Below are positions 1 through 29,769 of a stretch of 64,000 nt of DNA, piece after piece. The position numbers and the translations under genes were made by a program. The DNA is from a candidate division WOR-1 bacterium RIFOXYB2_FULL_45_9 (GTDB lineage Bacteria; Margulisbacteria; WOR-1; O2-12-FULL-45-9; XYB2-FULL-48-7): positions 1,575,470 through 1,639,469 of the forward strand of contig MEUD01000001.1 in NCBI GenBank assembly GCA_001771575.1. Reading direction: 5' to 3'. A model generated the notes under the pieces. It was not told where the DNA came from. It searched no databases and saw only the letters and a program-made list of their open reading frames with translations. Numbering within the stretch: the stretch's first letter is position 1; each line of letters opens with the position of its first letter.

Positions 1-117
1 GTTATACTTGCTGAAGCGGGCGCTGGCCAAGGACCCGAAATGCCGGACCAGCTCGGTCGCCGGACTCCGCGGTCAGCTGGAAATTATTTTAAAGAACCTG
101 CCGTAATTTTTATTAAG
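1..117 (+). CDS. 3' end (C-terminus only) of an upstream gene, partial at window edge
   Basis: Frame 1 is open from nt 1 to TGA at 115-117 (…GQGPEMPDQLGRRTPRSAGNYFKEPAVIFIKIK*). No homology recognised. Confidence 0.25.
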
Positions 118-160
118 ATCAAATGAAATTTCCCCCTCCCACCCACGATAACTAACTGTA

Positions 161-1003
161 ATGCCAAAGGTTATTTTCCAACCACAACGGGCCGGTTTTT
201 TACCGGCGGACTTTGCCGGCCGCCGGCTTGCCCCAGCCAAACAAGGTCGGGTTGAGCTTGCTCGGCTTGGTCGAGATCTTCCTATAAGAAGCGACAATTT
301 GATTTCTAAACCGCCGCTGACCGGGATCTATAGTTTGATAGCCCAGAAACAGGTGGCGGTTGTTGTTTCTGCCGAACAGATCCCCGAAGAGATTCGCGCT
401 CCTTTTTCTTTGGCCGGTCCCAAATTTGCTGAAGATTTTAACTCTTTTATCTCAGCCCTGGTTTTATTTGAATCGGTTAGGGGTGTGCAAAGGGAGTGGA
501 CTTATGGTTTTGAGCTGTCTATGCTCGGTCTGGAAAAAGAGAACTTTTGGTCATTGCTTGGATCAGCTACAACCGAAATTTCCCAGAATAACGGACGGGG
601 GATCGTTTTTTTAAGCGCGAATTCACCTGATAACGTGTTGATTCCGGGGGGGGAGTTCCATTGGAGTTTAAGCTGGCTGATCGGCCGCCTCCGCGCCGGC
701 AACTTGTTGCTTAGTGAGAATGGACGGGATTGCGTTGCGGCCATGTATCAAGTAAATATGTTAAAAGAGTTTATTTCGGGGAATCTCGACTCCGATGCCG
801 GTTTTTACTATGATCCACGGCTGACGCAATATTTAAAATGTTTAGTTGGGTTCAATGAGCTTATTGCCGATAAAGCGCGCTTTCTCTCGGGCCAGGAAAA
901 AGAGGTGATCGCTCAACATGAGGGGGGCTGGTCGGTGTCAAACATTATCAGTTTCAATCGAGCCGTAGTTGAGGGGTATCTTAGGGCTTTGCGGGAGACA
1001 TAA
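161..1003 (+). CDS. hypothetical protein (280 aa)
   Basis: Long ORF with GC and codon usage typical of the window. Translationally coupled to the next ORF (stop 1003, next ATG 1006). No recognisable motif. Confidence 0.5.
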   Translation: MPKVIFQPQRAGFLPADFAGRRLAPAKQGRVELARLGRDLPIRSDNLISKPPLTGIYSLIAQKQVAVVVSAEQIPEEIRAPFSLAGPKFAEDFNSFISALVLFESVRGVQREWTYGFELSMLGLEKENFWSLLGSATTEISQNNGRGIVFLSANSPDNVLIPGGEFHWSLSWLIGRLRAGNLLLSENGRDCVAAMYQVNMLKEFISGNLDSDAGFYYDPRLTQYLKCLVGFNELIADKARFLSGQEKEVIAQHEGGWSVSNIISFNRAVVEGYLRALRET

Positions 1004-1005
1004 TT

Positions 1006-1458
1006 TTGATCGCTATTCATCGACTGCTAGGTTCTTTGGGGATCGCAAGTTCGCAGTACAAATTACTTCAATCCGGTCAACTCTCCAGCCGGGCGATCCT
1101 CCGTTTGGCGTTTGCTCCAAGTCGGGAGGTTAGCCTTTGCGCCTGGGCGGCGATCAACACCCGGCCGGAAATTATCTATAGTGGGGCGCGGAGGGATGAG
1201 TTTGGAGTTAACCGTCTGCTGCCGGCGGCGGAACTGGCCTTAAAACAGAGAGAAATAGAACCCCGGACCGTTGCCCGGGTTTTGCATTATTTGGGTTCCG
1301 ACGAAGCCAGGGAACCAACCTATGTAATCGATCTGTTAAGTGAGCATAGCGCAAACAAGCAAGGGGACATTGTCTCCGAACTTGGCAAGATTAACCTTCC
1401 TTTGGCGAAAAGAATAGTCGCGATTTGGCAAACAAGCCGCGGACTCCCCACAGAGTAA
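1006..1458 (+). CDS. hypothetical protein (150 aa)
   Basis: ORF immediately after the previous stop. No recognisable domain. Confidence 0.45.
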   Translation: MIAIHRLLGSLGIASSQYKLLQSGQLSSRAILRLAFAPSREVSLCAWAAINTRPEIIYSGARRDEFGVNRLLPAAELALKQREIEPRTVARVLHYLGSDEAREPTYVIDLLSEHSANKQGDIVSELGKINLPLAKRIVAIWQTSRGLPTE

Positions 1459-1606
1459 TTCACTTCTCCTGACGACCTGCCCACTTATAGGCCGATTTCT
1501 GCCTCACCATCACCCGGCACCCTTCATTACCCCAAAACATTGACTCTCAAAGAGGGGAGTGGGAGAATATATAGATGATTAGAGCCCTTATAAGGCTGGG
1601 AAATGT

Positions 1607-2254
1607 ATGAATAATAAAGAGAAAATATTTTCAAAAAAAATGAAATGTCCTTATTGCAATAGTAATATTTCTATGGAAATAGTAGCTAGATATAATCAAA
1701 TGGAAATGATATGCGATGATGATATGCAGATGCAATATGAAGAAGGGACTTACTATGAATTATTGCTATGTGCTTCATGTAATCAAATAATTTTACAATC
1801 AAAATATTATTTTGAGCCATGGGGAAAAGAACAAGAGTCGCCGAAAATTCTTTTTCCTTCCGAAGAAAAGCCAATTCTGGGTCTTCCTGAAACGGTCAAA
1901 AAGGCATATGAAGCAGCTGTAAAAATTCGTAAAATTGATACAAATGCATTTGCCGTTTTATTGGGTCGGGTGTTAGAAATAGTTTGTCAGGATCGCAGTG
2001 CACAAGGGGGCTCGCTTTACGATAAACTTAAATATTTGGCAGATAAAGGAGAAATGCCAAAGCGCTTGGCGGAAATGGCCAATAGTCTTAGACAATTACG
2101 AAATATTGGTGCACATGCTGATTTAGGGGAGTTGAGTGACAAAGAAATTCCTTTTCTTGATGGCCTATGTAGAGCCATTCTTGAGTATATTTATAGTGCT
2201 CCCCAGTTAATTGAGGCAGTTCAGACAAGACTTAATAAGATAACGAAGTCCTAG
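1607..2254 (+). CDS. Zn-ribbon + DUF4145 (HEPN-like, Rx4H motif) protein; putative abortive-infection/defence RNase
   Basis: AT-rich ORF (about 30% GC versus about 57% in flanks). N-terminal CPYC…(about 35 aa)…CASC zinc-ribbon pattern. C-terminal LRQLRNIGAHAD matches the DUF4145 / HEPN signature R-x4-H. RBS-like AAGG 6 nt upstream. Confidence 0.65.
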   Translation: MNNKEKIFSKKMKCPYCNSNISMEIVARYNQMEMICDDDMQMQYEEGTYYELLLCASCNQIILQSKYYFEPWGKEQESPKILFPSEEKPILGLPETVKKAYEAAVKIRKIDTNAFAVLLGRVLEIVCQDRSAQGGSLYDKLKYLADKGEMPKRLAEMANSLRQLRNIGAHADLGELSDKEIPFLDGLCRAILEYIYSAPQLIEAVQTRLNKITKS

Positions 2255-2300
2255 ATTTCAAGCAACCAAATATAATAGAGGAATAAAATAAGGCTAGCAA

Positions 2301-3104
2301 GTGGATAAAAAAATATATTATTGTTTTTTAGATGAAAGATTTGAAGAAGAAAGCGCCATAATAGGCGGCTATCTAATTGATGATGTTAATCTTAAGGTAT
2401 TATTTCAGAATATTGTTAGAATTAAAAAGGAAAACAATTTACCTTTGGAAACCAATATGAAGTGGCGTCATTGTAAGAAAAATAAGAATTTAGCAAAAGA
2501 TGTGTTTTCTTTGTTGTCAAAAAATAATGGCGTAACATCTTTTGTGTCTATGGTATGGACCGGGAAGGGTGGGGATAAATTCCAAGGATGGAAAAATTGT
2601 TTGAGCAATCTATTGGAAAGATTAATAATTAATTTGGATCAATTAAAAAATAAAAATGATGAGAGCTATCCTTCGGTATTTATTGTTTTTGATATGCTCC
2701 CTGGAGGGGTGGCTGGTTTAAACAAAAAAAAGCTTTGGCAATTTCTAAAAATATATTTAGATTATTATCAGAATAAACATAGTTTTCTAAAAAATGAATT
2801 ACCATCATTAAAAGAATTCTCCGCGTTTGATTCATTGGTTATTGCGCCTGCTCGCTCGTGCTCTGAAGTTCAGTTGGCTGATTGTTTTGTCGGAATGTGT
2901 GGGGACTTTTTGTATTGGAATTATAAGAATATAGACAGTGATAGCAAGGAAATAATTAAGGCTAATTTGCCCAAAATTGATTCTTTTGCTAGGGATAGGA
3001 ATGGAGATGTTATGGGGTGTGGCATTAAAATCCCTGATAGTGAAAAACAAAAAGTTATTGATAAGTTAAATGAATTATCTTTTAAAGTTGTATTGGCTCA
3101 ATAG
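2301..3104 (+). CDS. DUF3800 family protein
   Basis: AT-rich ORF starting with GTG at 2301. It carries the two motifs that define DUF3800: an N-terminal D-E motif (YYCFLDERFEEE) and a C-terminal Q-x-A-D motif (SEVQLADCFVG). Same strand as the HEPN-like gene and 46 nt downstream of it. Confidence 0.6.
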   Translation: MDKKIYYCFLDERFEEESAIIGGYLIDDVNLKVLFQNIVRIKKENNLPLETNMKWRHCKKNKNLAKDVFSLLSKNNGVTSFVSMVWTGKGGDKFQGWKNCLSNLLERLIINLDQLKNKNDESYPSVFIVFDMLPGGVAGLNKKKLWQFLKIYLDYYQNKHSFLKNELPSLKEFSAFDSLVIAPARSCSEVQLADCFVGMCGDFLYWNYKNIDSDSKEIIKANLPKIDSFARDRNGDVMGCGIKIPDSEKQKVIDKLNELSFKVVLAQ

Positions 3105-3117
3105 GAGGTTTGACGCT

Positions 3118-3435
3118 ATGTTAAACATACTCCTCTCCATTCTCTATATTGCCTTCATCAGCTTATTTGCCTTAGATGTCTTTAGCGGCGGATTCAGCTG
3201 GCCGGGGACGGTGATTGCGTTATTCATCCACCTTATTCCAACCTTTATTCTGATCGTTTGCCTTACCGTTGCCTGGAAGAGGGGAGTAGTTGGCGGGAGC
3301 CTTTTTCTAGCGGTGGGGATCTTGTTCACTCTCTGGTTTAGGACCTATCAGCGGCTTGATGTCTTCCTTTTAATTAGTTTTCCGTTGCTGTTGATCGGTA
3401 CGTTGTTTATAATAAGCGGAAAGAGGAGGCTGTAA
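3118..3435 (+). CDS. small integral membrane protein (about 105 aa, 3-4 TM helices)
   Basis: AGGAGG RBS at 3103-3108 followed by ATG at 3118 (MLNILLSILYIAFISLFA…). Strongly hydrophobic throughout. GC back to the window norm. Confidence 0.5.
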   Translation: MLNILLSILYIAFISLFALDVFSGGFSWPGTVIALFIHLIPTFILIVCLTVAWKRGVVGGSLFLAVGILFTLWFRTYQRLDVFLLISFPLLLIGTLFIISGKRRL

Positions 3436-3437
3436 TC

Positions 3438-3920
3438 ATGAATGAAAAAGAGTGTTGCCCCAAGTTTGACCCCCAGCCCTGGGACGAAAAAACGCACGTT
3501 TGGAAAAATAAACCTTTCATCCGGGAAACTATCCCCCAAATTTTCCATATGCCGCTCCCCTGGATGTTTGGCGGCGCGGTGACCAAGATGTGGAACCTGG
3601 CCCAAAAGAGTGGGGCGGCACCGGCCATGAAAGATTTTATTTTGATGAGCTACGATCCTTCTCCCTGGCGGTCTGTACTTTATATGACCGTTACCAAAGA
3701 GGTCCCCGGCGCGGATAACGTGACGCTATCGGGCACTTATATCAGCAAGGTTTTTGACGGACCCTATAACGCTGTCCCCAAGTGGATCAAGGAATTTGAC
3801 AAGTACCTGTCAGGGAAGGGGAAAAAGGCCCAGCAGTACTATTTTTACTTTTCCTACTGTCCTAAGTGCAGTAAAAAGTACGGCCATAACTTTTGTGTCG
3901 CCTTCGCGCGGGTCGATTAG
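3438..3920 (+). CDS. hypothetical protein (160 aa, Cys-containing C-terminus [13 protein letters not shown])
   Basis: ORF 2 nt after the previous stop. No confident family assignment. Confidence 0.45.
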
Positions 3921-5176
3921 AGGTCTTCCGGGCTAACTATCCGGCCCGCTACCGCTGAAGCGGCGGCGACGGCGACGTTGGAGAGGTAGACTTCCGATTT
4001 GGGATGGCCCATCCGGCCGACAAAATTGCGATTGGTCGTGGCGATTGCCCTTTCCCCTTCAGCCAAAATTCCCATGTGGCCGCCAAGACAGGGGCCGCAG
4101 GTTGGGGTCGAGACCGCCGCTTCCGCTTTAAGAAAAATATCAAATAACCCTTCTTTCATCGCCTGCGCGTAAATCTTTTGGGTCGCCGGGATAATGATCA
4201 GCCGGACATCTTTGTGTTTCTTTTTCCCTTTGAGAACCTTGGCCGCGATCCGCAGATCTTCGATCCGGCCGTTGGTGCAGGAGCCGATGACCGACTGGTC
4301 GATCTTAACCGACTTGCACTGGCTGACCGGTTTGGTGTTGCTGGGGAGGTGAGGGAAGGAGACCTGCGGTTCGATCTTGGAAATGTCCCAATCGTAAACC
4401 TGGACGTATTCGGCGTCCGGGTCGGAAGTGTAAATTATTCCTTTGTCCGCTTTGACCTTTTTCAGGTAGGCGGCGGTCTTGGCGTCGGCCGGGAAGATTC
4501 CGTTCTTACCGCCCGCTTCGATCGCCATGTTGGCCATGGTCATCCGTCCTTCAACCGAGAGGGAGTCGATAACTGGGCCGGTGAATTCCATCGACATGTA
4601 GCGGGCGCCGTCGACCCCGATCTGGCCGATGGTGTAGAGGATGAGGTCCTTGGCTTCGACCCACTTGGGGAGTTTGCCGCGGTAGACGAACTTTAGTTGT
4701 TCGGGGACTTTGAACCAGACTTCGCCGGTCGCCATCCCGGCCGCCATGTCGGTGGAACCGACGCCGGTCGAGAAAGCGCCAAGGGCGCCGTAAGTGCAGG
4801 TGTGGGAATCGGCTCCGATGATCAGGTCGCCCGGTTTGATCGCCCCCATTTCCGGGAGGAGGGCGTGTTCGACCCCCATACAGCCAATCTCAAAGAAATT
4901 GACGATCCCGTACTTTTTGGCGAACTCGCGCATCATCTTGACCTGCTCGGCCGATTTGATGTCTTTGGCCGGGGTGAAGTGGTCGGGGACCAGGTAGATC
5001 TTTTTTTTGTCGAAAACTTTTTTGACCCCGATCTTTTCAAACTCTTTGATCGCCGGGGGGGAGGTGATGTCGTTCCCCAGGACAAGGTCCAGTTTGCAAT
5101 TGATCAGCTCGCCGGGAAAAACATCTTTCTTGCCGGCGTGTTTGGCTAATATTTTTTGGGAAATTGTCTGTGCCAT
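3917..5176 (-). CDS. leuC: 3-isopropylmalate dehydratase / homoaconitase large subunit (archaeal-type about 420-aa LeuC/HacA)
   Basis: Aconitase-family hallmarks in the translation: [42 protein letters not shown], Fe-S ligand region [21 protein letters not shown]. No leuD small-subunit gene is adjacent. Confidence 0.9.
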
Positions 5177-5227
5177 GGTTTAATCTTAACAAATTTGTCG
5201 CCAGCTTTCAAGAAAGCCGCTCCGCTA

Positions 5228-5236
5228 TGTTATAAT
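5228..5236 (+). promoter_or_regulatory. extended -10 promoter element TGTTATAATT upstream of the OMP/TIGR00725/thiC operon
   Basis: TGnTATAAT at 5228-5236. The same decamer TGTTATAATT recurs at 9794 and 43257. Confidence 0.5.
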
Positions 5237-5262
5237 TCCTTTAACCTAAGGAGCGTGTTTTT

Positions 5263-5745
5263 GTGAAAAAAATCGCTATTGTTCTCTGTTCCTTGTTGGC
5301 CCTTGGTTGTTTTAGTCAGGTTAGAGCGGAGATCGGGATCGGCTATGAATCGATGGTTATTTTGCCGCACGCGGCTACCATTTATTACAAAGACAAGTCG
5401 AGCGGTTTTGGCGCGAAGTTGTCGGCCGATTTTGGGACCTCGTTCCTTTCCAACATGGTCAAACTTTACGGCTCGATCGTTACTCTAGGCTTGGCCAACA
5501 TTAAGGACGTTAGTTTTTATACCGCTTCGCTGACCAAAGACCTGACCCAGGAACCAAAATCCCGCTCCTACGTGCGAATTGGGGTGATGTTCTTTTCCGC
5601 CTCATCGGGGAGCGCTACGGCGACCACGACCATCCCAACCCTGGGGATCGGTTGGGAGTGGCAGGACGGTCTTTTTGGGCAGACGACTTCCTGCGAGCTT
5701 GGCTATCCGGAATTGCTGACTTTTGGGATACGTCATTATTTTTAA
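5263..5745 (+). CDS. outer-membrane beta-barrel family protein (secreted, C-terminal Phe)
   Basis: GTG start with AAGGAG RBS at 5248-5253. Signal peptide MKKIAIVLCSLLALGCFSQVRA. Alternating hydrophobic pattern and terminal …GIRHYF, which is typical of OMP barrels. Confidence 0.55.
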   Translation: MKKIAIVLCSLLALGCFSQVRAEIGIGYESMVILPHAATIYYKDKSSGFGAKLSADFGTSFLSNMVKLYGSIVTLGLANIKDVSFYTASLTKDLTQEPKSRSYVRIGVMFFSASSGSATATTTIPTLGIGWEWQDGLFGQTTSCELGYPELLTFGIRHYF

Positions 5746-5756
5746 AGAGGTTGATC

Positions 5757-6272
5757 ATGATCAATAAAACTTTTATCGCGGTGATCGGCGAGAGCCACGC
5801 GTCGTCTGAAATCGCCAAAATGGCGGAAGAGATTGGCCAGGAGATCGGCAGGGCAGGGGCGGTTTTGGTTTGCGGCGGGTTGAAAGGGGTTATGGAACAT
5901 GCTGCCAAGGGGGCCAAGAGCGCCGGCGGGACGACGATCGGCATTCTCCCGGGGAGCCGGCGTGAAGACGCCAACCCTTACGTTGATTATCCGATCATTA
6001 CCGGGATTGGCTACGCCAGGAATAAGTTGGTGGTCAAAACCGGCCACGTGGTGATCGCGATCGGCGGATCCTATGGCACATTGTCAGAGATCGGGTTTGC
6101 TTTAGGTTACAAGATCCCGGTAGTTGGACTGAATACCTGGCAGATGATCCACCACGACGGCCAGTTGGACAAGCAAGTTCACCGGGTTAACACGGCCAAA
6201 GAAGCTGTCGTCCTGGCCCTGAAATTAGCCCGCGAAGCAAGGCCGGAAGAGCCGCGCGAATTTAGGAACTGA
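5757..6272 (+). CDS. TIGR00725 / LOG-family Rossmann-fold protein
   Basis: MINKTFIAVIGES…VLVCGGLKGVMEHAAKGA…GGTTIGILPG…VVIAIGGSYGTLSEIGFAL is the conserved core of the TIGR00725/LOG (lysine-decarboxylase-like) family. RBS AAAGAGG upstream of ATG 5757. The longer ORF-track start at 5652 overlaps the preceding gene. Confidence 0.7.
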   Translation: MINKTFIAVIGESHASSEIAKMAEEIGQEIGRAGAVLVCGGLKGVMEHAAKGAKSAGGTTIGILPGSRREDANPYVDYPIITGIGYARNKLVVKTGHVVIAIGGSYGTLSEIGFALGYKIPVVGLNTWQMIHHDGQLDKQVHRVNTAKEAVVLALKLAREARPEEPREFRN

Positions 6273-7552
6273 TGACCACCCAACGCCAAGCCGCCTTAAA
6301 AGGGATAATTACCCCGCAGATGAAAGCCGTTGCCCGGGACGAAGGAAGACAGGAGACGGAGATACGGGACGGTCTTGCGAAGGGGACGATTGCGATCCCA
6401 TTCAACCCAAGGCATCGAGGGCTTAAGGCAATAGGCATAGGCAAAGGCTTAAGGACTAAGGTCAACGCTAATATTGGGACTTCGGCTGATTTTCCCCAAT
6501 TAAAGAACGAACTTGTTAAACTCAAAGCTGCTATTGACGCTAAAACCGACGCGCTGATGGATTTGTCTACCGGCGGGAATATCAACGCCACCCGCAAAGC
6601 GATCATGTCCGCTTGCCCGGTCCCGGTCGGGACCGTTCCCATCTACCAGATGGTCGTCGAAAAGAAAATGACGGTCGAGGGGATGTTTGCGGTCGTGGAA
6701 GCGCAGGCCAAAGAAGGGGTCGACTTTATGACGATCCACTGCGGCGTGACCAGGGCTTCCGTGGCTGAATTAAAAAAACACCCCCGCTTAATGGAAGTTG
6801 TCTCTCGCGGCGGCGCGCTGATGATGAAATGGATCCTTGATAACGACCAGGAGAATCCGTTTTATGAACACTACGACCGCTTGCTTGAGATCGCCGCTAA
6901 ATACGATGTTACGATGTCGCTTGGCGATGGAATGCGGCCGGGCTCGATTGTTGACGCGGGAGACGCGGCGCAGATCAAAGAGCTCAAGATCCTGGGCCAA
7001 TTGACCAAAGAAGCGTGGCGGGCCGGGGTCCAGGTGATCATTGAAGGGCCGGGACATGTTCCTTACGACCAGATCGTCGGCCAGATGAAAATGCAGAAGA
7101 AGTATTGCTACGGGGCGCCGTTTTATGTTCTGGGGCCGCTCCCGACCGACGTCGCTCCCGGCTACGATCACATCACCGCCGCGATTGGCGGGACCTTAGC
7201 GGCGGTTGCCGGCGCCGATTTCCTCTGTTACGTTACGCCGACCGAGCATCTTGGCCTGCCGGAAGCGGCCGACGTCAAAGAAGGGGTGATCGCTTCCCGG
7301 ATCGCCGCCCACTGCGCCGATATCGCCAAGGGAATCCCCGGGGCGATTGAGTGGGACAGGGCGATGTCCAAAGCGCGCAAAGAGCTTAACTGGGGAAAAC
7401 AGATCGCCTTGGCGATCGACCCGGAAAAAGCGAAGGCGATCCATGAGAAAAGAAAGGGAGACGGGATACGGGGGACGGGACACGGTAAAGGAGTCTGCTC
7501 CATGTGCGGCGAATTCTGCGCGATGAAAGTCTCCAGCGAAGCGCTGAAATAA
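6272..7552 (+). CDS. thiC: phosphomethylpyrimidine synthase ThiC
   Basis: Characteristic ThiC sequence throughout, including the C-terminal radical-SAM-like CSMCGEFCAMK motif. No leader is available for a TPP riboswitch: the start is at the stop of the upstream gene. Confidence 0.95.
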   Translation: MTTQRQAALKGIITPQMKAVARDEGRQETEIRDGLAKGTIAIPFNPRHRGLKAIGIGKGLRTKVNANIGTSADFPQLKNELVKLKAAIDAKTDALMDLSTGGNINATRKAIMSACPVPVGTVPIYQMVVEKKMTVEGMFAVVEAQAKEGVDFMTIHCGVTRASVAELKKHPRLMEVVSRGGALMMKWILDNDQENPFYEHYDRLLEIAAKYDVTMSLGDGMRPGSIVDAGDAAQIKELKILGQLTKEAWRAGVQVIIEGPGHVPYDQIVGQMKMQKKYCYGAPFYVLGPLPTDVAPGYDHITAAIGGTLAAVAGADFLCYVTPTEHLGLPEAADVKEGVIASRIAAHCADIAKGIPGAIEWDRAMSKARKELNWGKQIALAIDPEKAKAIHEKRKGDGIRGTGHGKGVCSMCGEFCAMKVSSEALK

Positions 7553-7599
7553 CATTAATTTGCCTGAAATTTGTTTTTTATCCCATCGATAAAAAGGGG

Positions 7600-7980
7600 A
7601 TGAGAACTTACAAGATAAAAGTTTTTCCTTACGTTCCTTCCCAGGTCTTAAAAAATATTGCCGGAGAGTCTTCGCCGGAATTATTGGCCAGAATGCGCCG
7701 ATTTCGGATGAATATCGTCGGTTTGGCGGCGGTAACCTGCCTGGATGTCTCGTCCGTGAAAGATTTGGTTTTTGGCCGGGTCCCCCCGATCAGCAGACGG
7801 GGTTCCTGGACAAAGGTTGCCATTAAAGTCTCTAATGCGCTCCTGGCCAGACCGGAAGACCTTTTCCCTAAAGTCATTGATCAGATCGGCGTAGCCCTCA
7901 CGAGCCCGGACCAGGAAATTTTCCCCGGGAGCCTCGTACCCGAGCTCAATCCCTCCAAAGAACTGCGAACAATTAAATAA
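7600..7980 (+). CDS. hypothetical small protein (126 aa)
   Basis: ATG at 7600 preceded by a purine-rich AAAAAGGGGA. The longer ORF-track version (7504) overlaps the thiC 3' end. An alternative antisense ORF 7681..8058 overlaps the next gene, so this call is weak. Confidence 0.3.
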   Translation: MRTYKIKVFPYVPSQVLKNIAGESSPELLARMRRFRMNIVGLAAVTCLDVSSVKDLVFGRVPPISRRGSWTKVAIKVSNALLARPEDLFPKVIDQIGVALTSPDQEIFPGSLVPELNPSKELRTIK

Positions 7981-7981
7981 A

Positions 7982-9013
7982 ATGGCTAAAGTTGTCCATC
8001 TGCCGAAAGCGACCTTTTTCCAGCGCTCTTTTTCACCGGGCCACCGGGCTGACGTCAAGTATCTTCCAAAGGCGACCCCGATATATCACGGCGAAAAATA
8101 CATTGGTTCTGATGGCAGTGCCGGTTTTTCCCGGCTGGTCGGATATGCTTTGCCGGGAGGTTTTTTGTCGTTTACCGATGGCCTGCCGCCTAAAACCATC
8201 TCCGCCGCGATCTCTTTTTGGCAAGAACATGAAAAGAATGATAATGAATGGGTGCCGCGCTTTCAACAGTTGCCTTTGCCCAGGCAAATGGACTATCTCC
8301 GGGTCTTTTTTGGTTATGACAATCCCAGGAACTTTTTTGAGAAAGCGACTATTAATACCGCGCGACGGATAAGCGGGCTGGCTAAACGTGATTTAGAGCT
8401 GGCCCGGACTGTTTTTTGGCGGACCAGTGAGATCTCGCCTTTAGATTTTGATCAGGCGGTCTTTTACGCTCTTGGCAAACACCCTCTTTTGCAGGCACGG
8501 CTGTTAGTGGCCAGGGGAGCGGTCCAGGGAGCGCGTTTGTTGGACGAAACATTTGAAGAGCGAACTTATGACGATCTGGAAGCGGTCCGGATCCTGATCG
8601 AGGGGGAGGGCTTGTCCCCGGCAGAAAAAGAGATCATACGAGAGATCAACAGGCTTTTTTTTCAAACAAGGGGGGGAGTGGCCCGGTCGTTTATTCTTCG
8701 CCGACTGCTGGTCTGGCGAGACAAGCTTAGCGACGCGATCAGTTTTAGCCGGCTTGTTGATCGTAAGATCAGACAGCTTGGTGATGAAAAACTGCGGTCA
8801 ATAGTCAGTCTGGCGGAAAAATCAGAAGCTCTGTGGCGTCAGTTGTGCGAGGGGTTGGGTTGTTATTCGACCCCGGAGCTTTATGAGTTGTTGTTGTTAT
8901 TTTACCGAAACGATCGGATCCTGATCCTGAAAAAAATGGGAGAGAACGGCTTTGCGGAGCGGGTCGAAGCGTTGGATTTTTACCTGATAAATGAGATGGG
9001 GAACAAACAATAA
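7982..9013 (+). CDS. hypothetical protein (343 aa)
   Basis: Long ORF with normal GC. No motif recognised. Confidence 0.5.
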   Translation: MAKVVHLPKATFFQRSFSPGHRADVKYLPKATPIYHGEKYIGSDGSAGFSRLVGYALPGGFLSFTDGLPPKTISAAISFWQEHEKNDNEWVPRFQQLPLPRQMDYLRVFFGYDNPRNFFEKATINTARRISGLAKRDLELARTVFWRTSEISPLDFDQAVFYALGKHPLLQARLLVARGAVQGARLLDETFEERTYDDLEAVRILIEGEGLSPAEKEIIREINRLFFQTRGGVARSFILRRLLVWRDKLSDAISFSRLVDRKIRQLGDEKLRSIVSLAEKSEALWRQLCEGLGCYSTPELYELLLLFYRNDRILILKKMGENGFAERVEALDFYLINEMGNKQ

Positions 9014-27168: not shown

Positions 27169-27816
27169 ATGAAAACGATCTCCGTCGCGCAAGCCAAAGA
27201 ATTTGACCACCGGGCCCAGGTTGATTTTGGCGTGCCGTCGATCGTTTTGATGGAGAACGCCGGCCGGAGCGCGGCCGAGGTCGCTTTGAAGATGCTTTGG
27301 TGGCGGGAGAGGGCGGCGGTTGTTTGCGGGGTAGGGAATAACGGCGGCGATGGCCTGGTCGCGGCGCGCCACCTTTATAATCAAGGGAAAAAAGTCACGG
27401 TTTTTGTTATTGGGGACCACAACCGGGGGACGATCGATTTTATGGCCAATCTGCTGATAATTGAGCATCTTGGCTTGCCGATCGTTTGGGTCAAAGAAGC
27501 GGTTCAGCTTGAAGAGCTCTCCCAGGCGGAGCTGGTGATCGACGCTCTTTTTGGTTTAGGGTTGACGACTCCTGTTAGGCAACCGGCTAGGGAGATGATC
27601 GAAACGATAAATAGCTTGCGCAGGCCGGTTTTAGCGGTCGATCTTCCATCAGGCTTGAACGCTGATAGCGGCGAGGTGATGGGGGCGGCGGTAAAAGCCA
27701 AGTGTACCGTGACTTTTATCGCTATGAAGAAAGGGTTTTTGTCTCCTCAAGCGAAACAATATTGTGGGCGTATTATTGTAAGAGATATTGGGATTACCTC
27801 ACCCACCATCCGCTAA
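27169..27816 (+). CDS. nnrE: NAD(P)H-hydrate epimerase (YjeF N-terminal domain)
   Basis: YjeF_N hallmarks: CGVGNNGGDGLVAARHL and the LDxxFGxG loop (IDALFGLGL). 215 aa. Confidence 0.8.
   Translation: MKTISVAQAKEFDHRAQVDFGVPSIVLMENAGRSAAEVALKMLWWRERAAVVCGVGNNGGDGLVAARHLYNQGKKVTVFVIGDHNRGTIDFMANLLIIEHLGLPIVWVKEAVQLEELSQAELVIDALFGLGLTTPVRQPAREMIETINSLRRPVLAVDLPSGLNADSGEVMGAAVKAKCTVTFIAMKKGFLSPQAKQYCGRIIVRDIGITSPTIR
27171..27200 (+). repeat. 30-bp direct repeat copy B (GAAAACGATCTCCGTCGCGCAAGCCAAAGA) = codons 2-11 of nnrE
   Basis: See copy A. Confidence 0.7.
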
Positions 27817-27852
27817 AGCGGATGGTCCCCCCTCTCCATTTCATGGAGAGGG
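27805..27852. other. two tandem perfect hairpins at the nnrE stop codon
   Basis: ACCATCCGC-TAAA-GCGGATGGT (27805-27826; the loop contains the TAA stop), then CCCTCTCCAT-TTC-ATGGAGAGGG (27830-27852). No T-tract follows. Confidence 0.5.
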
Positions 27853-27964
27853 CCGGGGATAGGGGAAGCGAAATGCGCGTCCATACTGAACTTGTATTCT
27901 AATCCAGTGCCATTCTTTGGGTGTCTGCCTCACTCAACACTGGGACAAACCGCTCAATAAGCCA

Positions 27965-27995
27965 GGAAGCCGCGGCGATATTACCGCTAGTTTCC
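27965..27995. repeat. 31-nt REP-like palindromic repeat, copy 1 (GGAAGCCGCGGCGATATTACCGCTAGTTTCC)
   Basis: Matches copies at 41121-41151 and, in reverse complement, at 62947-62977, with 2-4 mismatches. Outer stem GGAA(A/G)CC…GGTTTCC. Confidence 0.65.
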
Positions 27996-28051
27996 TGGGT
28001 TGCTTTTCCCCTAAACCGTGAGTAAAATGTGGGCAGAGAAGGGGAGGATAT

Positions 28052-28348
28052 ATGGATAAAATAGAAAATGCTCAAGAGAATGTTTTAAATTTGTTAAGGA
28101 AAGAGTGCGATAATTGGGTTGATTTAAATGAACTGTTTAATGAAGTACCGAATGCAAAAAATGATTTTACTAATGTTGATGATTTTTTTAAGAACGTAAT
28201 TGTTCCTTTGCAGCTTAAAAATAAAATTGATGTAGATAGTAAAGTGAAAGTTCCACTCTGTCCTCAGCCAAGTCAAAGTCCTCAAAATGCGCCTATAATC
28301 AGGAATCTCAGCAGTGTTGAAATTATTCAAGTTAGAATTAAACAATAA
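28052..28348 (+). CDS. hypothetical protein (98 aa), AT-rich
   Basis: ORF in a low-GC islet with GGAGG RBS (aagGGGAGGatatATG). No homology recognised. Confidence 0.4.
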   Translation: MDKIENAQENVLNLLRKECDNWVDLNELFNEVPNAKNDFTNVDDFFKNVIVPLQLKNKIDVDSKVKVPLCPQPSQSPQNAPIIRNLSSVEIIQVRIKQ

Positions 28349-28363
28349 ATCCATAGTTTTAGG

Positions 28364-28870
28364 TTAAATAAAACCTATCCTTGTGGGTTTTTCCGGTTGA
28401 GTAAGCATTTGATGAATCGCCTCGAAGATTAATTGAATATCCGAGCTGTTCTTGCCGGTTTTTTGTTCCAGTTCATTAATCTTGGCAATTAATTCCTTGT
28501 GTTGAGCTAGAATGTTCCGCAATTTGGTGAATATCCTCATGATCTGAATATTAACCTGGACAGCTTGTTTACTTCGTAGAACAGAAGAAAGCATCGCAAC
28601 CCCGTTTTCGGTAAAAACATTGATATTTTTATGGTATTTTAAAGGAGAGGATATCACAATTTGTGATATCCTCTGTATTTCCTGTTTTGACAGCGAAAAC
28701 ATGAAGTCATTTGGGAACCTTTCCTGATTTCTACTTACTGCTTGGTTTAAGGTGCCTGTTGGGATTCCGTATAATTCTGCTAAATCCCGGTCTAACATAA
28801 CTTTTTGGCCACGAATCATGTAGATTTTGTTTTGGATTGCTTCTAAAGGGATCAATTCATTATTGGTCAT
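28364..28870 (-). CDS. ORF6N domain protein (phage antirepressor-like DNA-binding N-terminal domain)
   Basis: N-terminus IRGQKVMLDRDLAELYGIPTGTLNQAVSRNQERFPNDFMFSL matches the ORF6N (KilA-N-related) consensus almost residue for residue. AT-rich. Confidence 0.8.
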   Translation of the reverse strand: MTNNELIPLEAIQNKIYMIRGQKVMLDRDLAELYGIPTGTLNQAVSRNQERFPNDFMFSLSKQEIQRISQIVISSPLKYHKNINVFTENGVAMLSSVLRSKQAVQVNIQIMRIFTKLRNILAQHKELIAKINELEQKTGKNSSDIQLIFEAIHQMLTQPEKPTRIGFI

Positions 28871-28902
28871 AATTTTGCCTTTTGGAAATAAGATGCTAAG
28901 AA

Positions 28903-29769
28903 CTAAGCAATATTATTGCCAAGTGCAGTTGCGGAGCAGATTCGTGGAATACCGGCATAATCATTGATAATTATAATATCTGTATAATTAGGGTTAATAC
29001 TGAAAAACTGACGAATTGCCGCTGATTGTCCAAACCCAAACTCAAACATTAACTTTCCTCCAGGATTAAGATGAGCGGGGGCGTCTTTGATGAGACGGCG
29101 GATATAGGCTAAGCCGTCAGCCCCGCCGTCAAGCGCTGAAATAGGCTCCCAATCTTTAACTTCAGGCTCCAATCCTGTTAAATCAGCGGTCGGGATGTAG
29201 GGAGGGTTCGAGACGATCAAGTCGACTTTTTCTTTCAAAGGAGCGAGAAGATCCCCTTCAAGAAAAGTGATTTGAGCGTTGTGAGCCGCGGCGTTTTCTT
29301 TGGCTAATTCCAAAGCAGAAGGGGAGAGATCGATTGCGGTAACTCTGGCAGTTGGTAATTCCTTGGCTAACGTAATGGCGATACACCCACTACCAGTCCC
29401 AACATCAGCAACAATGATAGGTGAATAGGGGATTAGGTGATTAGTGAATTTGGGATTGGAGATTATTTTTTCCACTAACAGTTCCGTTTCCGGTCGGGGG
29501 ATCAATACCCGTCGGTCGACTTTTATATCTATACCCATGAACGGTTGATAGCCGACAATGTACGCGGTCGGTTCGTGAGCCAGGCGTCTAGCGATCGAGG
29601 ATTTAAAGTTGGCCAGCAGTTTTTCCTGAATAACCTGATCGCCTTGCGATATTAATTTGGTTGTTGGTAGTTGGAGGTTGTTGGTTAATAAGACTTCCGT
29701 TTCCAATCGGGGATCTTCAAAGCTTGAGAGTTGGGTGATCCCCCAGGCGAGCGCCTCGGCGATCGTCAT
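28903..29769 (-). CDS. prmC: release factor glutamine N5-methyltransferase PrmC/HemK
   Basis: Motif I ADVGTGSGCIAI and NPPY (VSNPPYIP). Directly downstream of prfA with a 4-nt overlap. The last about 50 codons are AT-rich. Confidence 0.9.
   Translation of the reverse strand: MTIAEALAWGITQLSSFEDPRLETEVLLTNNLQLPTTKLISQGDQVIQEKLLANFKSSIARRLAHEPTAYIVGYQPFMGIDIKVDRRVLIPRPETELLVEKIISNPKFTNHLIPYSPIIVADVGTGSGCIAITLAKELPTARVTAIDLSPSALELAKENAAAHNAQITFLEGDLLAPLKEKVDLIVSNPPYIPTADLTGLEPEVKDWEPISALDGGADGLAYIRRLIKDAPAHLNPGGKLMFEFGFGQSAAIRQFFSINPNYTDIIIINDYAGIPRICSATALGNNIA

What the first reader, a model, noticed from the sequence alone, without database searches (positions are those of the whole stretch)
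1540..3105. AT-rich two-gene islet: Zn-ribbon/HEPN-like (DUF4145, Rx4H) + DUF3800, a candidate undescribed defence/abortive-infection module
Seen in sequence: a roughly 1.6-kb block whose GC content is far below both flanks. It carries two co-oriented genes, the second starting with GTG.
- Gene 1 has a CPYC…CASC zinc ribbon and the C-terminal motif LRQLRNIGAHAD (R-x4-H).
- Gene 2 has the DE and QxAD motifs (CFLDERFEEE … VQLADCFVG) that define DUF3800.

Established knowledge: the R-x4-6-H motif is the catalytic signature of the HEPN RNase superfamily, and DUF4145 is a HEPN-like family often embedded in restriction/abortive-infection contexts. DUF3800 is an uncharacterised family, recurrently found in variable regions.

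Inference: a HEPN effector paired with a DUF3800 partner on a horizontally acquired islet looks like a toxin/sensor defence pair. As far as I can recall it is not a named system. No integrase, tRNA or flanking repeat was found, so the integration mechanism is unexplained.
Basis: partly seen in the sequence, partly recalled or inferred. Interest (0 to 1): 0.72.

Follow-up and report, generated by a model that had tools for sequence, protein, structure and literature searches.

The report
RAZR-like RNase plus DUF3800 islet
A small foreign-looking DNA insert carries two neighbouring genes: a distant relative of RAZR, a known phage-triggered suicide RNase, and a rare RNase H-like nuclease; the two are almost never found together elsewhere, so this looks like two separate known-type genes, not a new two-gene defence system.

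Summary
Window ~1558-3118 is the lowest-GC stretch of the 64 kb (0.33 vs median 0.53) and holds two co-oriented genes 46 nt apart.

- **Islet:** confirmed. A related genome has the same flanks with a different low-GC cargo.
- **Pairing:** not conserved. Of 86 other gene-1-like loci, only one has a gene-2-like neighbour (reversed order, both genes with nonsense codons). None of 10 gene-2 relatives has a gene-1-like neighbour. The 80%-identical gene-1 homologue stands alone.

Best reading: two independent, individually mobile defence-type genes stacked at a hotspot. A facultative functional link is not excluded (~0.13). Interest is modest.

The parts
1540..1568 (+). Promoter-like site (TTGACT, 17 nt spacer, TG-GAGAAT) just upstream of the cargo. 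The -35-like part is conserved in the related contig L093.
   Evidence: Consensus scan. Alignment with L093 shows identity through TTGACTCTCAAAGAGGGG, and TGGGAGAATA recurs at the start of the alternative cargo. Function is inferred, not shown.
1558..3118 (.). Variable low-GC cargo (islet) at a hotspot between the 150-aa ORF (1006-1458) and the DUF7670 gene (start 3119).
   Evidence: GC 0.333, the lowest in the window. L093 has the same flanks but carries a DeoC-like aldolase plus a membrane protein instead.
1607..2254 (+). Gene 1: RAZR/PD-T7-4-like zinc-finger HEPN RNase (215 aa).
   Evidence: Pfam DUF4145 2.8e-15. PADLOC PD-T7-4 2.5e-9 over residues 8-180; 29 of 35 family members hit that model. 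hhalign to the RAZR clade 92.7%, E 4e-7. phrog_1305 1.4e-25. Model pLDDT 85.
1646..1780 (+). Cys4 zinc ribbon of gene 1 (C14, C17 ... C55, C58), within the beta-rich N-terminal domain.
   Evidence: Sequence. C55 and C58 are invariant, and the first Cys pair is present in all full-length homologues. The model shows beta strands at residues 24-83.
1850..1888 (+). Conserved inter-domain linker (LFPSEEKPILGLP; P84, L93 and P94 conserved).
   Evidence: Alignment A1. The corresponding ..YP....(L/M)P.. segment is present in RAZR-clade sequences, and hhalign starts here. The linker is functionally essential in RAZR (PMC13017515).
2090..2116 (+). HEPN catalytic motif R162-Q-L-R165-N166-I-G-A-H170.
   Evidence: N166, G168, A169 and H170 are invariant; R162 and R165 are conserved in at least 90%. 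R162/N166/H170 align with RAZR R146/N150/H154. R146 and H154 are essential in RAZR.
2255..2300 (+). 46-nt spacer with an AAGG Shine-Dalgarno-like element upstream of the GTG; no terminator-like site.
   Evidence: Sequence. The terminator scan found none on the + strand inside the islet.
2301..3104 (+). Gene 2: divergent DUF3800, an RNase H2-like putative nuclease (267 aa, GTG start).
2331..2336 (+). D11-E12 of gene 2 (the DUF3800 'DE' motif, on beta strand 1).
2691..2693 (+). D131 of gene 2 (conserved in at least 90%, at the end of the strand at residues 126-130).
2871..2882 (+). Q191-L-A-D194 of gene 2 (the DUF3800 'QxxD' motif, at the start of helix 188-206).
3105..3435 (+). Downstream flank: AGGAGG RBS, ATG at 3119, DUF7670 membrane protein. 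Conserved next to both alternative cargoes and probably co-transcribed with the islet.
   Evidence: Pfam DUF7670 6.6e-23. Gene call of 105 aa in L003. Alignment with L093.

Best explanation
The islet is a variable cargo at a genomic hotspot. It stacks two independent, individually mobile, defence-type genes rather than one two-component system.

**Gene 1** is a distant member of the RAZR (PD-T7-4) family. By homology (inferred, not shown here) it sits in the cell as an inactive oligomer. Its N-terminal zinc-ribbon domain recognises a large ring-shaped phage assembly such as a portal. Assembly around that ring positions the HEPN dimers (R162/R165, N166, H170) into an active RNase. That RNase cleaves single-stranded RNA non-specifically, stops translation and aborts the infection. 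The trigger for this clade is unknown, because the zinc-finger domain is the specificity-determining and most variable part.

**Gene 2** is a rare, divergent DUF3800 protein with an RNase H2-like fold and a conserved carboxylate set (D11, E12, D131, D194, plus Q191). It is most likely a metal-dependent nuclease that acts on its own. Its substrate and trigger are unknown. A defence role is suggested only by analogy with other DUF3800 proteins.

Both genes are probably transcribed from the conserved promoter-like site at 1540-1568, together with the downstream DUF7670 and hydrolase genes.
For: **Gene 1 belongs to the RAZR family**
- PADLOC PD-T7-4 E 2.5e-9 spanning both domains. 29 of 35 homologues hit only that model.
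- Profile-profile match to the RAZR clade: 92.7% probability, E 4e-7, across linker and HEPN.
- The catalytic R/N/H are in register with the PDB 9y9c RAZR chain.
- Cys4 ribbon and linker are conserved.
- RAZR is a single-gene Abi RNase with R146/H154 essential (PMC13017515).

**Gene 1 stands alone elsewhere**
- The 80%-identical homologue sits beside Maf and flavin reductase genes with no partner.
- Across 80 genomic loci no neighbour family recurs in more than 2 loci.
- Solo copies occur on a mobilisable plasmid and between phage tail genes.
- It matches the phage family phrog_1305.

**Gene 2**
- RNase H2-like fold, conserved DE/D/QxxD motifs and family-level DUF3800 hits.
- Ten relatives lie in unrelated contexts without any gene-1-like neighbour.

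**Hotspot**
- L093 has the same flanks with a different low-GC cargo.
- The solo homologues of each gene are also low-GC relative to their own flanks.
Against: - The relationship of gene 1 to experimentally studied RAZR is distant: about 25% identity over linker plus HEPN. The family profile hits the RAZR PDB chain only at E 0.25, and neither fold search retrieved that chain. Ring-templated activation may therefore not transfer.
- The two genes are tightly linked: 46-nt spacer, no terminator between them, nearly identical GC3.
- One other lineage (L054) also has a DUF3800-like gene immediately next to a RAZR-like gene in a low-GC block. That is more than I would expect for such rare families if they were fully independent. 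No genome-wide background was available to test this.
- Nothing here shows that either protein is expressed or active.
Confidence: 0.65

Rival explanations
1. Facultative functional coupling. Gene 2 (a DUF3800 nuclease) acts as an accessory or second effector for the RAZR-like HEPN RNase in this lineage. It might, for example, degrade nucleic acids once the RNase is triggered, or process RNA products, much as DUF3800 proteins accompany some Cas12a2 and type VI-F CRISPR effectors.
For: - Tight co-oriented adjacency, no terminator between the genes, and matching GC3.
- A second, independent adjacency in L054: reversed order, 42-nt spacer, low-GC block, and both genes carrying a single TAA nonsense codon at conserved positions.
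- DUF3800 is reported as an accessory in V-A2 and VI-F CRISPR loci. That type VI effectors are HEPN RNases is from my own knowledge.
Against: - 85 of 86 other gene-1-like loci and 10 of 10 gene-2 relatives lack the partner.
- The 80%-identical gene 1 homologue and the 46%-identical gene 2 homologue are both solo.
- RAZR works as a single gene.
- The L054 DUF3800-like protein is only distantly related to gene 2 (about 25-30 bits), and the gene order differs.
- Defence genes cluster in islands anyway.
Confidence: 0.13
2. Obligate two-gene toxin/sensor system: the HEPN effector needs the DUF3800 partner, or the reverse.
For: Only the local arrangement supports this.
Against: Co-occurrence is essentially absent across both families. 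The nearest homologues are solo. The gene 1 family is a known stand-alone system that carries its own sensor domain, the zinc-finger domain.
Confidence: 0.03
3. Gene 2 is not a defence gene. It is instead a mobility enzyme for the islet (an RNase H-fold, transposase/integrase-like recombinase) or a housekeeping-type RNase H paralogue.
For: - An imperfect 8-nt direct repeat, TTGACTCT/TTGACGCT, lies exactly at the two junctions. The pattern has only 7 matches in 64 kb.
- No PADLOC hit for gene 2 itself.
Against: - The best structural matches are RNase H2/H3 and PIWI, not transposases.
- No terminal inverted repeats.
- The alternative cargo at the same hotspot in L093 has no DUF3800 gene.
- Gene 2 relatives hit the PADLOC candidate model PDC-M04A.
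- The gene is far too rare and patchy to be housekeeping.
Confidence: 0.05
4. Gene 1 is a HEPN RNase with a non-defence role, for example RNA processing or regulation, or a toxin of an addiction module. RAZR-type ring-templated activation does not apply to this distant clade.
For: The relationship to RAZR is distant. About half of the neighbours in other genomes are housekeeping genes. The trigger-binding zinc-finger domain is divergent.
Against: - The architecture is the same, the linker is conserved and the catalytic residues are in register.
- The PADLOC PD-T7-4 model is the only hit for the family.
- The gene has a patchy, cross-phylum distribution, low GC relative to its hosts, and is carried on a plasmid and a phage.
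- Defence and mobile genes are frequent neighbours: AbiEii, SAVED, TIR, restriction enzymes, transposases.
- No antitoxin-like partner recurs.
Confidence: 0.1

Closest known systems
RAZR (ring-activated zinc-finger RNase; formerly PD-T7-4), E. coli UMB1727 and Klebsiella variicola; PDB 9y9c; Zhang et al., Nature 2026 (PMC13017515)
   Same: About 215 aa. N-terminal Cys4 zinc ribbon, conserved linker, C-terminal DUF4145/HEPN. The catalytic Arg/Asn/His are in register (R162/N166/H170 against R146/N150/H154). It is a stand-alone gene, patchily distributed across phyla and found on mobile DNA.
   Different: Only about 25% identity over linker plus HEPN, and the zinc-finger domain is not alignable with confidence. 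This clade also has a canonical R-N-x3-H arginine (R165) where RAZR has glycine. Trigger, oligomeric state and RNase activity are untested. Here the gene is followed by a DUF3800 gene, which RAZR is not reported to have.
DUF3800 (PF12686) effector of type VII retrons (Mestre et al. 2020, PMC7736814)
   Same: DE motif at the N-terminus and an RNase H2-like fold. Human RNase H2A (3puf) is among the best structural matches in both cases.
   Different: There is no reverse transcriptase or msr/msd next to gene 2. Gene 2 keeps the Q of QxxD, which the retron-associated proteins lack. Gene 2 falls just under the Pfam threshold.
TPR-DUF3800 accessory proteins of Cas12a2 (V-A2) and type VI-F CRISPR loci (PMC10910872, PMC12669027)
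   Same: An RNase H-fold DUF3800 nuclease encoded next to an abortive-infection-type nuclease effector.
   Different: Gene 2 has no TPR domain, and there are no cas genes or CRISPR array nearby. The association here is seen in at most two lineages.
DUF3800-associated structured RNAs (DUF3800-I to -XI; Weinberg et al. 2017, PMC5737381)
   Same: Gene 2 is a DUF3800-type gene.
   Different: No match to any Rfam family near gene 2 or near 10 of its relatives.
HEPN-MNT toxin-antitoxin modules (e.g. PDB 7AE6, 5YEP) and other HEPN defence proteins (HepS, AbiV, Csm6, Ishtar)
   Same: The HEPN fold and R...H motif. These are the best structural matches for the C-terminal domain.
   Different: There is no MNT antitoxin partner. 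The N-terminal zinc-ribbon sensor domain is specific to the RAZR-type architecture.

Membership tests
RAZR / PD-T7-4 | N-terminal Cys4 zinc-ribbon (zinc-finger) domain | tested here: met
   C14-x2-C17 ... C55-x2-C58. Conserved across 35 homologues. Beta-rich N-terminal domain in the model. The PADLOC PD-T7-4 model aligns from residue 8.
RAZR / PD-T7-4 | Conserved linker joining the zinc-finger and HEPN domains | tested here: met
   L-[YF]-P-x7-8-[GD]-[LM]-P is conserved in both clades. The hhalign alignment starts at residue 80 in the linker.
RAZR / PD-T7-4 | C-terminal DUF4145 domain with HEPN fold | tested here: met
RAZR / PD-T7-4 | Catalytic Arg and His equivalent to R146 and H154 | tested here: met
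   R162 and H170 align with R146 and H154 in the hmmsearch alignment to PDB 9y9c_OA and in hhalign to the RAZR clade. H170 is invariant and R162 is conserved in at least 90%.
RAZR / PD-T7-4 | Significant sequence match to the family model | tested here: met
   PADLOC PDLC04109 E 2.5e-9. 29 of 35 homologues match, best 2.3e-12, with no other PADLOC family. hhalign 92.7%, E 4e-7. Caveat: the profile against the single RAZR PDB chain gives only E 0.25, so this is a distant clade.
RAZR / PD-T7-4 | Functions as a single gene (no obligate partner) | tested here: met
   This is genomic evidence only. There is no recurrent neighbour in about 86 loci, and solo copies occur on a plasmid and a phage.
RAZR / PD-T7-4 | Higher-order oligomerisation around phage ring proteins, non-specific ssRNA cleavage, abortive-infection phenotype | not testable with these tools
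   Requires biochemistry, cryo-EM and phage assays. Fold searches did not retrieve the RAZR chain for a direct structural comparison.
DUF3800 (PF12686) | Pfam model at or above the gathering score | tested here: inconclusive
   Gene 2 scores 19.7 bits against a cut-off of 21 (E 1.5e-3), covering profile positions 17-146 of 149. 12 of 22 family members hit DUF3800 at E <= 0.01 (best 4.5e-7) and no other family.
DUF3800 (PF12686) | N-terminal DE motif and C-terminal QxxD motif | tested here: met
   D11-E12 and Q191-L-A-D194. Q191 is conserved in at least 90% of the family, and DE is present in most members.
DUF3800 (PF12686) | RNase H(2)-like fold | tested here: met
DUF3800 (PF12686) | Nearby DUF3800-associated structured RNA (typical of the family, not strictly defining) | tested here: not met
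   No Rfam match at E <= 1 in window 1-6000, nor at E <= 0.1 in 11 loci with gene 2 relatives.
   1 of 86 other gene-1-like loci (L054) and 0 of 10 gene-2 relatives have the partner. No shared neighbour families.
Type VII retron (RT + DUF3800) | Adjacent reverse transcriptase and msr/msd ncRNA | tested here: not met
   There is no RT domain among ORFs 1-8000 that were scanned and no Rfam hit.
HEPN-MNT type II/VII toxin-antitoxin | Adjacent minimal nucleotidyltransferase antitoxin | tested here: not met
   Gene 2 has an RNase H-like fold, not an NTase fold. No MNT domain is present in the neighbours.

The most novel reading that the evidence does not exclude
DUF3800 RNase H-like nucleases are recurrent, facultative accessory effectors of HEPN-type abortive-infection RNases. 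They would pair here and in L054 with RAZR-like proteins, and elsewhere with Cas13 (VI-F) and Cas12a2. The pair would then form a two-nuclease module in which trigger-activated RNA cleavage is coupled to a second, RNase H-type activity.
Probability: 0.12. Interest if true: 0.6.

Novelty: new member of a known kind. Interest (0 to 1): 0.3.

Why it matters
If the main reading holds, the finding has three consequences.
- It extends the recently characterised RAZR family to a large, distant clade. That clade spans Acidobacteriota, Cyanobacteria, Planctomycetota, Bacteroidota, candidate phyla, plasmids and phages. It has a more canonical R-N-x3-H HEPN motif and very different zinc-finger sensor domains, which makes it useful material for asking how general ring-templated activation is.
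- It flags a very rare DUF3800 subfamily, with 23 representatives among 1.84 billion proteins, that has an intact RNase H-like catalytic set and no known partner or RNA.
- It documents a small cargo-swapping hotspot in a candidate-phylum genome.

It does not reveal a new defence system. Only the low-probability accessory reading would do that.

Tried and rejected
- **phmmer of gene 1 against PDB sequences:** no hit at E <= 1. Only the family profile reached the RAZR chain, weakly.
- **afdb50 fold library:** unavailable.
- **Word-indexed homology search for gene 2:** found only itself. The exhaustive search was needed.
- **The search for related loci with the gene 2 alignment:** failed because the alignment was too diverse. 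Contexts had to be obtained one protein at a time, and several of those contigs are short: 1-2 kb.
- **PDB sequence search for gene 2:** nothing meaningful.
- **Phage and plasmid collections:** no relative of gene 2.
- **Rfam:** no RNA family in or near the islet or near gene 2 relatives.
- **Literature search for PDC-M04:** nothing.
- **Upstream ORFs of gene 2 relatives:** I tested the idea that these ORFs (for example the 214-aa ORF in L088) are cryptic gene 1 relatives and rejected it, with no profile match and no Pfam or PADLOC hit.
- **tRNA-targeted integration:** rejected, because there is no tRNA in the 64 kb.
Full report
**Observation**

The window contains two co-oriented + strand ORFs at the stated place: 1607-2254 (215 aa, ATG) and 2301-3104 (267 aa, GTG), separated by 46 nt.

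GC is 0.353 for gene 1 and 0.313 for gene 2, with GC3 of 0.273 and 0.284. The flanking genes are at 0.49-0.53. The islet is the lowest-GC 1560-nt stretch of the whole 64 kb (0.333 against a median of 0.531). There is no tRNA in the window and no flanking repeat of 12 nt or more. A promoter-like site (TTGACT, 17 nt, TG-GAGAAT) lies at 1540-1568. No terminator-like site lies on the + strand inside the islet.

One source names gene 2's product a hypothetical protein of 'candidate division WOR-1 bacterium RIFOXYA12_FULL_52_29'.

**Gene 1 is a distant RAZR**

- Pfam places residues 103-181 in DUF4145 (E 2.8e-15).
- PADLOC's PD-T7-4 model matches residues 8-180, covering both domains (E 2.5e-9).
- PD-T7-4 has been renamed RAZR, ring-activated zinc-finger RNase (PMC13017515). 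It is a single-gene abortive-infection protein with an N-terminal Cys4 zinc ribbon, a conserved linker and a DUF4145/HEPN RNase domain. R146 and H154 are essential. It polymerises around phage portal or Gp77 rings and then cleaves ssRNA non-specifically.
- Gene 1 has more than 200 full-length homologues of about 215 aa across many phyla. Their alignment shows the Cys4 ribbon, the L-Y-P...G-L-P linker, invariant N166/G168/A169/H170, and R162 and R165 conserved in at least 90%.
- 29 of 35 homologues hit PD-T7-4 and no other PADLOC model.
- A profile of the family reaches the RAZR chain in the PDB (9y9c_OA, 24 chains) only weakly (E 0.25), but with R162/N166/H170 aligned to R146/N150/H154.
- Against an alignment of 26 true RAZR-clade sequences, hhalign gives 92.7% probability and E 4e-7 over linker plus HEPN.
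- The RAZR chain itself was not retrieved by either fold search.
- The zinc-ribbon-DUF4145 fusion was already listed in the 2013 HEPN survey (PMC3710099).
- Gene 1 also matches the phage family phrog_1305 over its full length (E 1.4e-25).

**Gene 2 is a rare, divergent DUF3800**

- The Pfam DUF3800 score is 19.7 bits, just below the 21-bit cut-off.
- The word-indexed search found only the protein itself.
- An exhaustive phmmer scan of 1.84 billion representatives found 23 hits, the closest at 46% identity.
- The family conserves FLDE, GG, KW, LQR, D131 and LQxAD. 12 of 22 members hit DUF3800 (best 4.5e-7) and nothing else.
- Several relatives, though not gene 2 itself, hit the N-terminus of the PADLOC candidate model PDC-M04A.
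- D11-E12 lie on strand 1, D131 lies at the end of strand 126-130, and Q191..D194 lie at the start of helix 188-206. This matches the arrangement expected for an RNase H-type carboxylate site. That last step is an inference from established knowledge of RNase H2, not a superposition.
- The literature describes DUF3800 as an RNase H-fold putative nuclease. It is fused or adjacent to type VII retron RTs (PMC7736814). It is an accessory in some Cas12a2 and VI-F loci (PMC10910872, PMC12669027). It is accompanied by eleven structured RNA motifs (PMC5737381).
- No Rfam family matches near gene 2 or its relatives.
- Gene 2 has no relatives in the phage or plasmid collections.

**Is the pair a system?**

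The closest gene 1 homologue outside this species (80% identity, Margulisbacteria) lies between Maf and flavin reductase genes and a convergent gene, without a partner.

I fetched 80 genomic loci encoding gene 1 relatives, plus one plasmid locus, one phage locus and two viral-contig loci.
- BLAST clustering of immediate neighbours finds no recurrent family.
- Pfam scans of 70 downstream and 73 upstream neighbours find no family in more than 2 loci.
- The neighbours are a mix of defence genes (Uma2, AbiEii, AAA_21, SAVED, TIR_2, Eco29kI, ResIII, type I restriction, Hypoth_Ymh), transposases and housekeeping genes.

Ten gene 2 relatives were placed on contigs. Their neighbours are unrelated to gene 1 and to each other.

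A stop-tolerant six-frame search with both family profiles gave these results:

| Loci surveyed | With the other family adjacent |
|---|---|
| 86 non-window loci with gene-1-like genes | 1 (L054) |
| 10 gene 2 relatives | 0 |

. The pairing is therefore not conserved. Each gene works, or at least persists, alone elsewhere, and RAZR is experimentally a single-gene system.

**The exception, L054**

In a Thermodesulfobacteriales MAG, a DUF3800-like gene (4123-4957) is followed after about 42 nt by a RAZR-like gene (4999-5693). The block has GC 0.36, against 0.44-0.47 in the flanks. Each gene carries one in-frame TAA at a conserved position: the Q of LQLAD in the first, and a conserved E in the zinc-finger domain in the second.

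This is a second, independent adjacency in the opposite gene order, apparently with both genes inactivated. Given how rare gene 2's family is, the adjacency keeps a facultative association alive. I could not evaluate it against a genome-wide, defence-island-aware background.

**The islet is a hotspot**

A metagenome contig, L093, encodes a 79%-identical copy of the upstream flanking protein. It has the same left flank (identical through TTGACTCTCAAAGAGGGG) and the same right flank (the DUF7670 N-terminus). Between them it has a different low-GC cargo (GC 0.37): a DeoC-like aldolase and a 211-aa membrane protein.

It also rules out a conserved syntenic housekeeping context.

The solo homologues of each gene are also low-GC relative to their own flanks: 0.378 against 0.526 in L001, and 0.326 against 0.47 in L005. 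The integration mechanism remains unknown. An imperfect 8-nt direct repeat, TTGACTCT at 1540 and TTGACGCT at 3110, sits exactly at the two junctions, and the pattern has only 7 matches in 64 kb. This was noticed post hoc, and the left copy doubles as a -35-like box.

**Verdict**

The domain calls and the islet are right. The 'undescribed toxin/sensor pair' reading is not supported.
- Gene 1 is a new, distant member of a named and mechanistically characterised single-gene system (RAZR/PD-T7-4).
- Gene 2 is a new, rare member of the DUF3800 RNase H-like nucleases, with unknown substrate.
- Together they are best read as two independent defence-type genes stacked in one hotspot cargo (confidence 0.65).
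- The most novel reading still open is that DUF3800 is a facultative accessory of HEPN abortive-infection RNases (probability about 0.12).
- Overall interest is 0.3.

Noticed in passing
L093:2870-4368 (metagenome contig Ga0172379_10037894), equivalent to window 1558-3118: The same insertion site between the 150-aa ORF and the DUF7670 gene holds a different low-GC cargo in a relative: a DeoC-like aldolase and a 211-aa membrane protein. An extra segment of about 88 nt with a GC-rich hairpin lies between two TTGACTCT copies at the left end.
   Followed up: partly
window 1540-1547 and 3110-3117: An imperfect 8-nt direct repeat (TTGACTCT / TTGACGCT) lies exactly at the two islet junctions. The pattern TTGACKCT has only 7 matches on both strands of 64 kb. 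It could be an att-like site or a coincidence, since the left copy is also a -35-like box.
   Followed up: partly
L054:4123-5693 (Thermodesulfobacteriales MAG SPCL01000008.1): A DUF3800-like gene and a RAZR-like gene are adjacent (about 42-nt spacer) in a low-GC block. Each has a single in-frame TAA at a conserved residue (the Q of LQLAD; a conserved E of the zinc-finger domain). Both appear to be pseudogenised.
   Followed up: partly
window 27400-29700: This is the second-lowest-GC region of the window (about 0.40). It contains an ORF6N-domain protein (28364-28870, - strand; typical of mobile elements) between YjeF_N, PrmC and RF-1 genes. It may be another small insertion.
   Followed up: partly
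proteins P0144-P0263: The database proteins most similar to the RAZR HEPN fragment are mostly 130-150 aa. They start within the linker and lack the zinc-finger domain. They may be mis-called starts, fragments or genuine variants without the zinc-finger domain.
   Followed up: no
window 3070-3435: The mechanical ORF for the DUF7670 protein starts at 3070 and overlaps gene 2. The likely real start is the ATG at 3119, preceded by AGGAGG (3105-3110), which agrees with the 105-aa gene call in L003. The RBS lies in sequence not shared with L093, so the cargo seems to supply the downstream gene's RBS.
   Followed up: partly
window 1590-1606 and 2285-2300: Both islet genes are preceded by the same TAAGGCT(G/A)G element 6-9 nt upstream of the start codon (ATAAGGCTGGGAAATGTATG; ATAAGGCTAGCAAGTG). 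It may be a shared ribosome-binding context from the donor.
   Followed up: no
L003:3090-7158 (same species; partly upstream of window position 1) and window 161-1458: The islet is preceded by two Ser/Thr protein kinase genes interleaved with ORFs that have no Pfam family. These include the window's 280-aa and 150-aa ORFs. This block is conserved in L093 but is of unknown function.
   Followed up: no
L095:3710-4642 (Virgibacillus phage Mimir87) and L094:3917-4624 (Calothrix plasmid pCAL6303.01): Gene 1 relatives occur as a moron between the distal tail protein and tail protein genes of a phage, and beside the relaxase gene of a mobilisable plasmid.
   Followed up: partly
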